Source of the DNA: a virus
Taxonomy: Duplodnaviria > Caudoviricetes
Virus record (IMG/VR): IMGVR_UViG_3300027792_000002
Location: 617 to 64,616 of that record
Length of the DNA: 64,000 bases
Reading direction: 5' to 3' (one strand)
Each line of letters begins with the position of its first letter. Position 1 is the first letter of the stretch. The notes below the pieces were generated by a model. The model was not told the origin of the DNA. It did no database searches and saw nothing but the letters and a program-made list of their open reading frames with translations. Positions 51,010 through 53,570 of this stretch are shown here, piece after piece. The position numbers and the translations under genes are program-made.

Positions 51010-51058
51010 AAATGTTTAATTATTAATTATTTAATCTATAAAGTAAATTTACATATTG

Positions 51059-51400
51059 TTATAGCCAATTAAAAGGAACGTCTAAATAATTTTGATTGTT
51101 ATTTAACCAAAATAAATAGTCCTTTGTTATTTCTGTTTCATAAATAGAATCAATAATTTCATTAGCTTCGTAATATTTATACATTTTAGGGTCACAAGAA
51201 TTTCCTCCACAATATTTTACAACAAGAATTTTATTTTTTTCTTGTTTAAATTTTTCATATCTATTCCATAGCATATCTTTAATATTATGCTCTGAAACTT
51301 CCATAAAACTTAACGCATGATTTATTCTATCTATTTCGTTTTTCAACTTTAATCTTTCAGCGTATAATTCTTCACGTTTTAATTCATAATAATTTTTCAT
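51059..51400 (-). CDS. Hypothetical cassette protein
   Basis: 113 aa; stop in GTTA box. Confidence 0.7.
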   Translation of the reverse strand: MKNYYELKREELYAERLKLKNEIDRINHALSFMEVSEHNIKDMLWNRYEKFKQEKNKILVVKYCGGNSCDPKMYKYYEANEIIDSIYETEITKDYLFWLNNNQNYLDVPFNWL

Positions 51401-51418
51401 AATTGAATAATTAACTGG

Positions 51419-51511
51419 CTATAACAATCAATATAAAACAGTTGCCAGAAAACTGCATCATATTTTGAAACATCTTACAAGGCAACCGTTTCATATTGCC
51501 GACCGTTAGTA
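51419..51511 (+). repeat. attC-like site C1 (93 bp)
   Basis: CTATAAC-caatataaaacagttgcc...ggcaaccgtttcatattg-ccgaCCGTTAGT. Confidence 0.75.
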
Positions 51512-51559
51512 GCAAGGCAAAGACGCTCCGAATGAACGTCCGTGCCAAGCATTAAGATT

Positions 51560-51682
51560 TTAGTCTGTGATAATTGACAATTGTCCACAGGCTGCACCGT
51601 TTTCAATCTCACTTTGAGTTGCTACGGCAACGGCAAAATCATAACCGTTTTCTTCTAATTGACTTTTAATTTGTTCAGTCAT
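51560..51682 (-). CDS. 40-aa peptide equivalent to RlmN/Cfr C-terminus (GAACGQL)
   Basis: MTEQIKSQLEENGYDFAVAVATQSEIENGAACGQLSIITD, translated by hand. Confidence 0.7.
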   Translation of the reverse strand: MTEQIKSQLEENGYDFAVAVATQSEIENGAACGQLSIITD

Positions 51683-51693
51683 TGCTTTATGTA

Positions 51694-52476
51694 TTAAATT
51701 AAATTAATTCCCTCTACTACTCCACTTCCAAGCCCATTCTTTTCAGAAGTAGTATTCGGGTTTATTGGGCTTATTTTTATGAAAAATTTATCCTTATCGA
51801 AATACTGTTTAATCTTTTCAATATCAAAGTCTTTTTCTTCTACCAAAGTTAAATTTATGGTAGTTTTCAAATTGCTTTCGGTTCTTACATTTCCAAGTTG
51901 CTCAATGGTCATTTTATTTTTGTAAGGTATTAGCCAATTCCTATGCTCTTCATCTAAGCTATGCAAAGAAAGTTGCAGCGTTACATTGTCTTTTATCCAA
52001 GTAAAATCGGCATCTTTCAAACCAATAGTTGAAATGTAGTGGTGTGTATTTGGGTAGTGTTGGCTTATTTTTTCAATTGCCTTTTTAACGTTTTCAATAT
52101 TTAAAAACGGCTCTCCCATTCGAGTATAGTTTATTTTAAATTCTTTACTATTCAATGGGTTTATGTTGTTTTTAGCAATTATAAACTCAACTTGTGTTGT
52201 AATTTCTTGCCAAGTCAAATTACGCCAACTTTTCATTTGTCCAGTTGCACAAAACTTGCATCTTACAGGGCAACCACTCATTACACTTACCCCAATCATC
52301 CAACGTTCTGAACGGTCGCTTAATTCGTAGTTCTCGAGCATATTTTGTTTTCTACCTATTGCATCTTTTGTATAAAAAGGCAAAAAGGTATCAGTAGTTT
52401 CAATCAACATTCCGTCCTCTAATTCGAGGCAATAAACTCTACCGTTTTTAAAGTTCTTTTGTTTTTTAATTTTCAT
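51694..52476 (-). CDS. RlmN/Cfr-like radical SAM protein lacking C-terminal segment
   Basis: SVMSGCPVRCKFCATG, MGEPFLN, ISTIG, LQLSLHS. Confidence 0.85.
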   Translation of the reverse strand: MKIKKQKNFKNGRVYCLELEDGMLIETTDTFLPFYTKDAIGRKQNMLENYELSDRSERWMIGVSVMSGCPVRCKFCATGQMKSWRNLTWQEITTQVEFIIAKNNINPLNSKEFKINYTRMGEPFLNIENVKKAIEKISQHYPNTHHYISTIGLKDADFTWIKDNVTLQLSLHSLDEEHRNWLIPYKNKMTIEQLGNVRTESNLKTTINLTLVEEKDFDIEKIKQYFDKDKFFIKISPINPNTTSEKNGLGSGVVEGINLI

Positions 52477-52509
52477 TGTATAAATATTTTAAGATTAAAA
52501 ATGCCCAGC

Positions 52510-52638
52510 TACTAACACCGTATATAAGTAATTGGGGTTTAGCTTGTTAATTAATCATTCTGCCACGTATTTAGGTCTGTATATTTTGATAGGTTCGCTC
52601 TTCGCATTCCCCAACTACTCATATACGAACCGTTACCG
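52510..52638 (+). repeat. attC-like site C2 (129 bp)
   Basis: ACTAAC-cgtatataagtaattgggg...ccccaactactcatatacg-aaCCGTTACC. Confidence 0.78.
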
Positions 52639-52642
52639 CCAA

Positions 52643-52984
52643 TTAAAACGAAATCTGAAACATTATCCCCTTTTCGTCTTTGATTAGGTCAGGTCTATCT
52701 GTTGCCCATAAACCAACTGTTGTATCCTTGTGATGTTCAAGTTTTTTGATATATCCAATATCTTTTAAATATTGTAAATATTCTTCTTTTGAGTTTACAT
52801 TATCAGGAATATAATATTTCTGGTTTTCATTTTCAATAGGGTCAGGTACAAATACCCATTGCTTTCTGTAATTATTTTCTTTTGAGTCAGAAAATTCATA
52901 CATAAATCCACCTTCTACTCTCATTTTTCTAAAAAGAAATTTTCCTGAATCTTCGTGTACATCAATAATTTTGTGTAATTCCAT
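52643..52984 (-). CDS. Hypothetical cassette protein
   Basis: RKMRVEGGFMY...VFVP. Confidence 0.7.
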   Translation of the reverse strand: MELHKIIDVHEDSGKFLFRKMRVEGGFMYEFSDSKENNYRKQWVFVPDPIENENQKYYIPDNVNSKEEYLQYLKDIGYIKKLEHHKDTTVGLWATDRPDLIKDEKGIMFQISF

Positions 52985-53004
52985 TTTGATTAAAAATTAA
53001 CTGG

Positions 53005-53096
53005 CGGTAACAACAGCTATATGTTATTGCCGTCAAAGTTTAGTGTTGTTTTGAAAGTTTATCGTTTGGCAACAACACATAGCCAAAACGTTAAGT
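53005..53096 (+). repeat. attC-like site C3 (92 bp)
   Basis: GGTAAC-gctatatgttattgcc...ggcaacaacacatagc-caaaaCGTTAAG. Confidence 0.75.
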
Positions 53097-53249
53097 GCAA
53101 CTCCGCTGTCGCTGCGTTGCACTTAACGGACTCCCGGCAAGCCGGTGCCAAGCTCCGCTCCGCTCCACTTAACACCCGGTTGGTGCAATCCAGCCAAGAC
53201 TGAGCCGGCTCACGGGGCTGGACAGACACCAACCGGGAGCCCGTTATGC
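53090..53249 (+). mobile_element. Second family of GC-rich ORF-less cassette plus attC-like site C4
   Basis: GTTAAGTGCAAC...GTTGCACTTAAC, second CACTTAAC, CCCGGTTGGTG...CACCAACCGGG. Confidence 0.7.
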
Positions 53250-53255
53250 ACAAGT

Positions 53256-53570
53256 TTAAGAAGCTACCCATATCTGCGATGGTCTTTCAAATTCTTTGCA
53301 TCCTACATTTGCATCGGTATGATAATCATTTGTCTTATCGTTGTTCGGTTTATTTTCACATCTAATTGCATAATGAACTTGACACCCTGCAATTATTACA
53401 TGATTATTTTCACTACCAACTTTTGCAAACCAGTTAGAGCTATTCCTATTGGTTTTTAAACCAAGAAATGTATCTTCAATTATTTCAACTTCACCCCAAA
53501 CAGCTCTATATTGTTTACCATCGGGGGCTAAAAACCAAGCATCTGTTGTTATTAAATATTTTCCTTTCAT
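53256..53570 (-). CDS. Hypothetical cassette protein
   Basis: MKGKYLITTDAWFLAPDGKQYRAVWG. Confidence 0.75.
   Translation of the reverse strand: MKGKYLITTDAWFLAPDGKQYRAVWGEVEIIEDTFLGLKTNRNSSNWFAKVGSENNHVIIAGCQVHYAIRCENKPNNDKTNDYHTDANVGCKEFERPSQIWVAS

What the first reader, a model, noticed from the sequence alone, without database searches (positions are those of the whole stretch)
51560..52476. Split RlmN/Cfr-like radical SAM enzyme: catalytic ACGQL on a separate peptide, resolving Cys missing
Seen: a 260-aa ORF has CxxxCxxC, MGEP and SLH motifs but stops early. Eleven bp later, in another frame, a 40-aa ATG ORF ends GAACGQL. Both sit in one cassette. The residue matching E. coli RlmN Cys118 (CVSSQVGC) is Gly here (GVSVMSGC). 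Known: RlmN methylates Cys355 (ACGQL), forms a covalent adduct with adenosine C2, and needs Cys118 to resolve it; C118 mutants stay crosslinked to RNA. Inference: the peptide may be a consumable co-substrate that is S-methylated or covalently attached to an RNA/DNA base, which would be new chemistry rather than a pseudogene.
Basis: partly seen in the sequence, partly recalled or inferred. Interest (0 to 1): 0.82.

Follow-up and report, generated by a model that had tools for sequence, protein, structure and literature searches.

The report
Two-piece phage RlmN-like radical SAM enzyme
This phage makes a relative of the RNA-methylating enzyme RlmN as two separate proteins, a 260-residue body that lacks one of RlmN's two key cysteines and a 40-residue peptide that carries the other; many unrelated phages keep this layout, but what it modifies is unknown.

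Summary
ORF1 (51694-52476, minus strand, 260 aa) is a radical SAM protein whose nearest sequence and fold relatives are RlmN and Cfr. ORF2 (51560-51682, 40 aa) starts 11 nt later in another frame and ends GAACGQLSIITD.

The split is not an error or a pseudogene:
- A separate peptide gene is present in 79 of 80 IMG/VR loci and 19 of 20 bacterial-genome loci.
- It occurs in all three relative frames. It lies 9-77 nt downstream, or about 1.2 kb downstream behind two extra genes.
- It is also present in cultured phages of Bacteroides, Moorella, Vibrio, Pectobacterium and Yersinia.
- ORF2 is under strong purifying selection.

Gly replaces the RlmN C118 position in 120 of 120 close homologues.

A complex model places ORF2 as the missing last helix-strand unit, with its Cys loop at the cluster. 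This may reflect memory of solved RlmN structures.

The "consumable peptide" reading is neither shown nor excluded. Natural fusions, and single-chain relatives that also lack that Cys, argue for an ordinary two-subunit enzyme. A tandem two-module peptide under selection and a methyltransferase-peptide fusion hint at a carrier.

The target is unknown. I found no paper on it. This scan has reported the same family on other DNA many times.

The parts
51694..52476 (-). ORF1, 260 aa: the radical SAM body (large subunit). It is RlmN/Cfr-like but lacks the N-terminal RNA-binding domain, the Cys at -7 and the C-terminal Cys loop.
   Evidence: PF04055, E 3.3e-10; TIGR00048, 78 bits against a cut-off of 290. 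RlmN 6fz6 at E 3.3e-24, Cfr 9p0p at 9.8e-19; pLDDT 88.7; ranks 1-11 are all RlmN or Cfr.
51560..51682 (-). ORF2, 40 aa, acidic (pI 4.05): the small subunit. It consists of a helix, a strand and the GAACGQL loop with Cys32.
   Evidence: (pN/pS 0.13).
51683..51693 (-). 11-nt spacer between the ORF1 stop codon and the ORF2 ATG. Its length varies among natural variants.
   Evidence: spacers of 9-77 nt in all three relative frames; the indels listed within or next to the two genes all lie at 51683-51692; the others lie in the 51452-51461 intergenic element.
52249..52272 (-). Codons for C69-P-V-R-C73-K-F-C76, the [4Fe-4S] cluster motif.
   Evidence: These residues are invariant in alignments A1 and A3.
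52291..52293 (-). Codon for Gly62, the position of RlmN Cys118.
   Evidence: alignment. Gly in 120 of 120 close homologues and in 27 split-type representatives.
51578..51598 (-). Codons for G29-A-A-C32-G-Q-L35, the loop matching the methyl-carrier Cys loop of RlmN/Cfr.
   Evidence: Invariant in 21 of 21 aligned peptides. Aligned to the AACGQ of the fused relative P0182.
52429..52431 (-). Codon for Cys16, the only other Cys of ORF1. It is clade-specific and lies at the modelled interface.
   Evidence: Cys in about 110 of 120 close homologues, but His, Ser, Ala and Ala in the Moorella, Pectobacterium, Yersinia and Vibrio phage homologues. Residues 14-16 are in the contact list.

Best explanation
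ORF1 and ORF2 are two separately translated subunits of one RlmN/Cfr-type (class A) radical SAM enzyme. It is carried by a complete 64.6-kb phage with terminal repeats.

Shown or modelled:
- ORF1 is the [4Fe-4S]/SAM partial barrel.
- ORF2 is homologous to the last helix-strand unit plus the Cys loop of single-chain relatives.
- In the model, ORF2 docks its strand next to ORF1 strand 231-235 and lays its GAACGQL loop against the cluster loop.

Inferred by homology:
- Cys32 of ORF2 is S-methylated by SAM.
- A 5'-deoxyadenosyl radical turns it into a CH2-S radical.
- That radical adds to an sp2 carbon, most likely C2 or C8 of an adenine in RNA or in a nucleotide.
- The step done by RlmN Cys118 (proton removal that releases the product) is done by some other residue, so the enzyme turns over.

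The pair is a self-contained accessory module of phages. Its target is unknown.
For: The split is conserved.
- A separate peptide ORF is present in 79 of 80 IMG/VR loci plus the window and in 19 of 20 loci from bacterial and archaeal genomes.
- Relative frames are 0, 1 and 2 in 4, 29 and 47 loci. Spacers are 9-77 nt in 59 loci and 1171 nt in 21.
- The split is also present in cultured phages at 70% to 36% identity: Kehishuvirus, Moorella MTATph1, Vibrio D479, Pectobacterium Arno162 and Yersinia P778.
- 0 of 120 best homologues contain CGQ, and 119 of 120 end at the same x-N-(L/I)-x point.

ORF2 is a real gene.
- Pooled pS is 0.77 against pN 0.10. Variable sites by codon position are 12, 8 and 33 of 33 codons.
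- Shine-Dalgarno-like motifs precede its ATG in the Moorella and Yersinia phages and in L089.
- A 1228-nt contig from another study covers 51499-52596 with 50 substitutions and no gap. Indels among variants of the two genes fall only in the spacer.

Family and fold. ORF2 homology.

Complex model:
- Score 0.76, best of 3 controls 0.01. The mark was reached by 58 of 80 solved complexes and 2 of 110 mismatched pairs.
- The runs agree in at least 63% of contacts, and the partner pLDDT is at least 64.
- This is a split of a solved fold, so the pass may come from likeness to RlmN structures.

Natural fusions place the module on the enzyme: P0182 and P0232 at the C-terminus, P0127 and P0147 at the N-terminus. 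This matches the modelled contact of the ORF2 tail with ORF1 residues 4-16.

20 of 90 classified representatives are single-chain with CGQ but without Cys at -7. Passages of PMC9692996 describe C118 as a general base.
Against: - No second Cys is conserved across the family. Cys16 is absent from 10 of 120 close homologues and from all four distant phage homologues inspected. The replacement for C118 is therefore unidentified.
- Separation is kept even where the genes are in frame and 9-30 nt apart, which suggests selection for two chains and not merely tolerance of them.
- The Vibrio phage D479 peptide holds two modules that differ at 19 of 87 bases but at only 1 of 29 residues. A static 1:1 subunit does not need that.
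- In about a quarter of loci the peptide gene lies behind a second radical SAM gene and a small methyltransferase gene. One protein (P0121) fuses that methyltransferase to the peptide.
- ORF1 lacks the N-terminal domain of RlmN, so an RNA target is an assumption.
- There are no biochemical data, and the complex pass may be memory of solved structures.
Confidence: 0.65

Rival explanations
1. The peptide is a dissociable carrier or single-use co-substrate. ORF2 is S-methylated, by ORF1 or in the four-gene variants by the small methyltransferase. It visits ORF1 for radical activation. It is then spent, or stays linked through a thioether to the target base, because no resolving Cys exists.
For: - Gly at the C118 position in 120 of 120 close homologues and in 27 split-type representatives.
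- C118A RlmN stays cross-linked to tRNA (PMC9692996 passages; PDB 5hr6/5hr7 titles).
- The split is kept in all frames, including 4 in-frame loci.
- The tandem two-module peptide in Vibrio phage D479 shows 18 synonymous against 1 non-synonymous difference between copies. Tandem forms make up 2 of 116 peptide clusters.
- The peptide gene can lie one or two genes away, or behind a methyltransferase. P0121 fuses methyltransferase and peptide.
- The peptides are strongly acidic, with a median charge of -6.5.
Against: - The model shows barrel completion by strand pairing, as in single-chain RlmN.
- Fusing a consumable to its enzyme would make the enzyme single-use, yet P0127, P0147, P0182 and P0232 exist.
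- 20 of 90 representatives are single-chain and also lack that Cys.
- C118 is now viewed as a base, not necessarily a disulfide partner.
- The whole peptide is conserved, not only the loop. Its helix and strand residues are invariant in 21 of 21 sequences.
- A tandem peptide could equally bridge two ORF1 molecules.
Confidence: 0.2
2. ORF2 is itself the substrate. It would be a RiPP-like precursor that ORF1 modifies at or through Cys32, with the product being a modified peptide.
For: It is a small peptide gene next to a radical SAM gene. Some relatives add a second radical SAM enzyme and a methyltransferase.
Against: - The peptide is homologous to an integral part of the enzyme fold and to its catalytic loop.
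- It is conserved over its full length, with no variable core.
- No protease or exporter gene recurs nearby. Only ORF1 is found in 81 of 81 loci, and the next most frequent neighbour is in 29.
Confidence: 0.04
3. The split is an artefact or a dead gene: an assembly indel, a recent frameshift pseudogene, or a gene joined again by programmed recoding.
For: The two ORFs lie 11 nt apart in different frames in this window.
Against: - The same stop point occurs in 119 of 120 homologues.
- Separate ATG-started peptide genes occur in all three frames and up to about 1.2 kb away.
- Both ORFs are under purifying selection.
- An independent contig shows no gaps.
- GenBank phage records annotate the two genes separately.
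Confidence: 0.01

Closest known systems
RlmN (23S rRNA A2503 / tRNA A37 C2-methylase; TIGR00048; PDB 3rf9/3rfa, 4pl1/4pl2, 5hr6/5hr7, 6fz6)
   Same: - Best sequence and fold match.
- CxxxCxxC cluster motif, MGEP and SLH motifs.
- AACGQL Cys loop (on ORF2), preceded by a helix-strand unit.
   Different: - Two chains instead of one.
- Gly instead of Cys118.
- No N-terminal domain: ORF1 residue 17 already aligns at about residue 100 of 6fz6.
- Scores 78 bits against a family cut-off of 290.
- Carried by phages; target unknown.
Cfr (23S rRNA A2503 C8-methylase; TIGR04432; PDB 9p0p)
   Same: Same class A architecture. Matched at E 9.8e-19 by profile and at rank 11 by fold.
   Different: Same differences as for RlmN. 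Nothing ties this gene to antibiotic resistance.
Single-chain phage RlmN-like proteins with both Cys (Stenotrophomonas phage ANB28, 319 aa; Salmonella phage Arash, 309 aa)
   Same: Phage-borne and also lack the N-terminal domain; 32% identity to ORF1. The ANB28 gene sits among tRNA genes, a hint that phage relatives may act on tRNA.
   Different: They keep Cys at -7 (ICCSTQSGC, MCVSTQAGC) and a fused GGGCGQLW tail.
Single-chain relatives without the Cys at -7 (P0182 347 aa, P0232 337 aa; the 'SNCGQ' group such as P0190 and P0204; PHROG 24834, function unknown)
   Same: They lack the C118 equivalent and keep the Cys loop. P0182 aligns with both ORF1 and ORF2.
   Different: One chain. Only 29-32% identical to ORF1.

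Membership tests
Class A radical SAM methylases (RlmN/Cfr) | Radical SAM CxxxCxxC cluster motif in a partial barrel | tested here: met
   C69, C73 and C76. PF04055 at E 3.3e-10. Invariant in alignments A1 and A3.
Class A radical SAM methylases (RlmN/Cfr) | Score above the curated family cut-off (TIGR00048 290 bits; TIGR04432 550 bits) | tested here: not met
   78.3 and 51 bits.
Class A radical SAM methylases (RlmN/Cfr) | Fold closest to solved RlmN/Cfr structures | tested here: met
   Model pLDDT 88.7. Foldseek ranks 1-11 are RlmN or Cfr, with E 1.5e-11 to 8.1e-7 and TM 0.58-0.67. The next family (TYW1) is at 5.6e-5.
Class A radical SAM methylases (RlmN/Cfr) | Methyl-carrier Cys (RlmN C355, Cfr C338) in a C-terminal loop of the same chain | tested here: not met
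   ORF1 stops before the loop. The loop (GAACGQL, Cys32) is on ORF2. 0 of 120 homologues contain CGQ.
Class A radical SAM methylases (RlmN/Cfr) | Second Cys seven residues before the cluster (RlmN C118, Cfr C105) | tested here: not met
   Gly62 aligns with it. Gly in 120 of 120 homologues.
Class A radical SAM methylases (RlmN/Cfr) | N-terminal helical RNA-binding domain | tested here: not met
   ORF1 residues 17-36 align at 6fz6 residues 100-119. Only 16 residues precede that stretch. The domain's role in RNA binding is recalled, apart from the figure legend seen.
Class A radical SAM methylases (RlmN/Cfr) | Methylation of adenine C2/C8 through an S-methyl-Cys intermediate | not testable with these tools
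   Needs biochemistry.
Two-subunit (heteromeric) enzyme | The two chains form a specific complex | tested here: inconclusive
   Model score 0.76 against best control 0.01; the mark was reached by 58 of 80 solved complexes and 2 of 110 mismatched pairs. The pass may come from likeness to solved single-chain RlmN. No experiment has been done.

The most novel reading that the evidence does not exclude
The 40-residue peptide is a free, exchangeable methyl(ene)-carrier protein, a protein-derived co-substrate. It is charged on Cys32 and radical-activated on ORF1. It is then either recycled off the enzyme or left joined to an adenine of a host or phage nucleic acid or nucleotide. That would be radical SAM chemistry without a resolving residue, with tandem carriers and a dedicated methyltransferase in some phages.
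Probability: 0.18. Interest if true: 0.9.

Novelty: new variant of a known kind. Interest (0 to 1): 0.7.

Why it matters
RlmN and Cfr are the textbook case of methylation through a protein S-methyl-cysteine radical, and both cysteines are held to be essential. This is a large natural family: 2023 homologues in one search and 2936 in another, spread over phages of at least three bacterial phyla. It puts one cysteine on a separate 40-residue chain and drops the other.

If the pair is catalytic, it shows that the product-releasing step can be done without Cys118. It also gives enzymologists a ready-made two-piece system for loading, labelling and swapping the methyl-carrier loop. If the peptide is consumed or becomes attached, it is a new kind of chemistry.

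The gene is also a common phage accessory module whose target is unknown. The target could be host tRNA or rRNA, phage nucleic acid, or a nucleotide. Cultured phage-host pairs exist in which this can be tested.

Tried and rejected
- Frameshift, pseudogene, assembly error and recoding: rejected.
- A universal partner gene besides ORF2: none. I clustered same-strand ORFs of 81 loci. Only ORF1 is in all 81. The next clusters are in 29, 25, 24 and 22 loci and follow phage relatedness.
- Terminal inverted repeats around the pair as a mobile cassette: 53 distinct flank pairs were scanned and only 1 had an exact repeat of 10 nt or more, while shuffles reach 8-12. Not supported as a general feature.
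- ORF2 profile against solved structures: no RlmN hit at E up to 10. Its homology had to be shown through fused relatives.
- ORF2 in Pfam, NCBIfam and PHROGs: no family.
- Search for ORF1-ORF2 fusions through the peptide, option 'longer': 3 proteins among 7 candidates, none a fusion with ORF1. This is weak evidence because the search works by shared words.
- Cys16 as the universal second Cys: rejected, because it is not conserved.
- Rfam and tRNA scans of the window: nothing found.
- Distant loci: the search for related loci with P0129 found none and with P0157 found one.
- RNA-library contig: it covers 51651-52425 and runs on into a diverged ORF2. It comes from a relative at about 90% identity, and DNA can be present in such libraries, so I do not count it as proof of transcription. 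Parts of the stretch without cover in some runs mean nothing.
- Literature: four searches found no paper describing a split or phage-borne C118-less RlmN/Cfr relative. The library holds open-access papers and bioRxiv only.
  - PMC9692996: passages seen.
  - PMC13255074: passages seen, nothing relevant.
  - PMC13001441, PMC5130265 and PMC10838301: listing and start of abstract only.
  - Supplements were not consulted.
- In one search my script took an internal Met as the start in three loci (L005, L006, L063), so their spacers are overestimates.
Full report
**What is there.** On the minus strand, ORF1 (51694-52476, 260 aa) is followed after an 11-nt spacer by ORF2 (51560-51682, 40 aa) in another frame.
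- ORF1 has the cluster motif C69-x3-C73-x2-C76, RMGEP and SLHS. Its only other Cys is Cys16.
- ORF2 ends GAACGQLSIITD and is acidic (pI 4.05, against 8.5 for ORF1).
- The window is almost all of a 64,616-bp virus record with direct terminal repeats, rated 100% complete.
- The pair lies in the minus-strand early region near a DnaB-like helicase and a NinG/Rap-like nuclease.
- The window has no tRNA gene and no Rfam match.

**Family and fold.**
- ORF1 hits Pfam Radical_SAM. Its best NCBIfam matches are RlmN (TIGR00048, 78 bits, cut-off 290) and Cfr models, all far below their cut-offs.
- A profile of 32 homologues finds only RlmN structures (6fz6 at E 3.3e-24; 4pl1, 5hr6/5hr7 and 3rf9/3rfa at about 5e-22) and Cfr (9p0p, 9.8e-19) with strong scores.
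- An AlphaFold model (pLDDT 88.7, pTM 0.87) has RlmN and Cfr chains as its eleven best Foldseek matches, with E 1.5e-11 to 8.1e-7 and TM 0.58-0.67. The next family is at 5.6e-5.
- In the alignment, Gly62 sits on the Cys of VCVSCQVGC in 6fz6 and on the mutated Ala of the C118A entry 4pl1.
- ORF1 begins only 16 residues before the stretch that aligns at about residue 100 of 6fz6, so the N-terminal domain of RlmN is absent.

**The split is real and old.**
- Of the 120 best of 2023 homologues (71-96% identity), none contains CGQ. 119 end at the same x-N-(L/I)-x point and all 120 have Gly at -7. The three long ones inspected carry N-terminal extensions only.
- In 80 IMG/VR loci, 79 have a separate ATG-started peptide gene of the form '..IK.QLE..GYDYAVAIAT.(S/A)EIENGAACGQL.II.E'. 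The exception (L077) has lost it together with part of a neighbouring gene.
- Counting the window, the peptide gene is in relative frame 0, 1 or 2 in 4, 29 and 47 loci. It lies 9-77 nt downstream in 59 loci and 1171 nt downstream in 21.
- In 20 loci from species genomes (Bacteroides, Segatella, Lepagella, Odoribacter, Clostridia MAGs and others), 19 have it. In the twentieth, the contig ends about 720 nt after ORF1.
- Cultured phages show the same layout at much lower identity:
  - Kehishuvirus 'tikkala' (70%; annotated as 262 aa plus 43 aa);
  - Moorella phage MTATph1 (43%; 274 plus 40 aa);
  - Vibrio phage D479 (39%);
  - Pectobacterium phage Arno162 (38%; peptide two genes away);
  - Yersinia phage P778 (36%; peptide one gene away).

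**ORF2 is a translated gene.**
- Over 33 codons and 36 distinct DNA versions, pooled pS is 0.77 and pN 0.10. All 33 third positions vary, against 12 first and 8 second positions.
- Shine-Dalgarno-like motifs precede its ATG in phages of hosts that use them.
- A contig from a different study covers 51499-52596 with 50 substitutions and no gap. The indels listed within or next to the two genes among metagenomic variants (a 1-nt loss, a T insertion and an ATTAA insertion) all fall in the 11-nt spacer.
- A contig in an RNA library spans ORF1 and runs into a diverged ORF2. This is at most a weak hint of co-transcription.

**ORF2 is the missing piece of the fold.**
- In alignment A1 the split proteins stop exactly where fused relatives (P0182, P0232) continue through a linker into '..ESGFAYAYAPAIDEEIRHQAACGQ'.
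- The ORF2 profile aligns to that segment (probability 94%, E 1e-7).
- The complex model scores 0.76 against a best control of 0.01. That mark was reached by 58 of 80 solved complexes and 2 of 110 mismatched pairs. The runs share at least 63% of contacts and the partner pLDDT is at least 64.
- In the model, ORF2 residues 14-18 pair with ORF1 strand 231-235, and the ORF2 helix packs on ORF1 217-223.
- ORF2 residues 24-38 touch ORF1 4-16, 24-32, the cluster loop 75-81 and residue 118.
- Because this is a solved fold cut in two, the pass may come from likeness to RlmN structures. It shows compatibility, not binding.

**The missing Cys.** I classified 90 of the 150 listed representatives (those of 225 aa or more with a cluster motif):

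| Residue at -7 | Cys-loop status | Count |
|---|---|---|
| Cys | fused C-terminal CGQ | 24 |
| Cys | no CGQ | 9 |
| Gly | no C-terminal CGQ (one has the module at the N-terminus) | 27 |
| other | fused C-terminal CGQ | 20 |
| other | no CGQ found | 10 |

- Gly at -7 therefore goes with the split without exception. Loss of the Cys, however, is also common in single-chain relatives.
- Cys16 is present in about 110 of 120 close homologues and lies at the modelled interface. It is His, Ser, Ala and Ala in the Moorella, Pectobacterium, Yersinia and Vibrio phage proteins.
- Among 102 short peptides of a wider peptide search, 23 have a second Cys four residues after the first (CGQxC). This window has Ser there.
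- Passages of the review PMC9692996 state three things. C355 carries the methyl group. C118A gives the cross-linked RlmN-tRNA seen in 5HR7. C118 is now thought to act as a general base whose proton removal triggers radical fragmentation to a Cys355 thiyl radical.
- A different base could therefore replace C118. I could not identify one. The family-specific invariant ETTDTFLP segment (E26, D29) lies in the modelled contact zone, and that is a guess.

**Fixed subunit or carrier?**

For a fixed subunit:
- the barrel-completing model;
- conservation of the whole peptide (22 invariant columns in 21 sequences);
- natural fusions at either end. P0127 has the peptide module, a linker and then the enzyme. 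P0147 has the module, the enzyme and a second radical SAM domain in one 695-aa chain. P0182 and P0232 are C-terminal fusions.

For a carrier:
- The separation is kept even in 4 in-frame loci.
- The Vibrio phage D479 peptide holds two modules that differ at 19 of 87 bases (16 at third positions) but at 1 of 29 residues, so both copies are kept by selection. Tandem forms are rare, 2 of 116 clusters, and could also bridge two enzyme molecules.
- In 21 IMG/VR loci and most of the Clostridia-type genome loci, the order is ORF1, a second radical SAM gene (255-263 aa), a small class I methyltransferase-like gene (147-148 aa), then ORF2, with overlapping stops and starts.
- One protein (P0121) fuses that methyltransferase to a peptide 93% identical to this window's ORF2.

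I weigh this as about 65% ordinary two-subunit enzyme and about 20% carrier or consumable.

**Target.** Nothing here identifies it.
- By homology, an adenine C2/C8 in RNA is the default.
- The lack of the RNA-binding domain, and the nucleotide-type partner enzymes in the four-gene variants, leave a nucleotide or small molecule open.
- A single-chain two-Cys phage relative sits in a tRNA gene cluster (Stenotrophomonas phage ANB28).
- Genome-wide DNA modification seems unlikely for a slow enzyme that spends two SAM per methyl group. That is my inference.

**Novelty.**
- Four literature searches found no description.
- GenBank records call these genes 'hypothetical protein' or 'radical SAM protein'.
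- This scan has noted the same family before on other DNA: 46 findings in at least 31 genomes, with the same two-piece reading and no known target. I reached my reading before seeing those notes.
- What I have not seen in the summaries of those notes: the tool-based C118 alignment; the Gly/split association table; the single-chain C118-less clades; the N-terminal fusions; the selected tandem peptide; the spacer indels among natural variants; and the intein-bearing homologue.

Noticed in passing
window 51055-51428 and 52632-53011; also 51441-51486 and 52519-52627: Two neighbouring 113-aa genes are each bracketed by their own long terminal inverted repeat starting GTTA and ending TAAC: 18 nt at 94% complementarity and 15 nt at 93%. 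Imperfect palindromes lie between the units. This matches a first-reader note on integron-like cassettes in this window.
   Followed up: partly
window 51400-51522: In two metagenomes the summed contig depth over this intergenic stretch is 170-560, against about 5-95 over the radical SAM genes. Several contigs break away from the window at 51499-51508. The element looks like a widespread repeat or recombination site.
   Followed up: no
window 53012-53290: A GC-rich island (50-57% GC in a genome of about 30% GC) folds far better than shuffles on the minus strand: -116 kcal/mol, z -6.25, 0 of 200 shuffles as good. It has no Rfam match even at E 1. It may be a structured RNA or a palindromic site.
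   Followed up: partly
L027 3780-4968; L100 3786-5001: Relatives carry a four-gene operon: ORF1, a second radical SAM gene with an unusual Cx11Cx2C spacing (weak MoaA/viperin-like hits), a 147-148-aa class I methyltransferase-like gene, then ORF2. Stops and starts overlap.
   Followed up: partly
P0125 (601 aa, 59% identical to ORF1): This homologue is interrupted at the third cluster Cys by an intein-like insert of about 340 residues with a LAGLIDADG-type motif (..CAF|CLLPES...VLVHN|C..). Such inserts usually mark a conserved, functional site.
   Followed up: no
L085 3857-4081 (Vibrio phage D479): The small protein contains two tandem copies of the peptide module. The copies differ at 19 of 87 bases but at only 1 of 29 residues.
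   Followed up: yes
L081 955-2172 (Kehishuvirus); hits H12 and H25: An SPFH/band-7 gene lies two genes upstream of the pair in Kehishuvirus. The matches in Stenotrophomonas phage BUCTxx99 and Xanthomonas phage JGB6 are annotated 'prohibitin family protein'. This could be a fusion or a mis-annotation.
   Followed up: no
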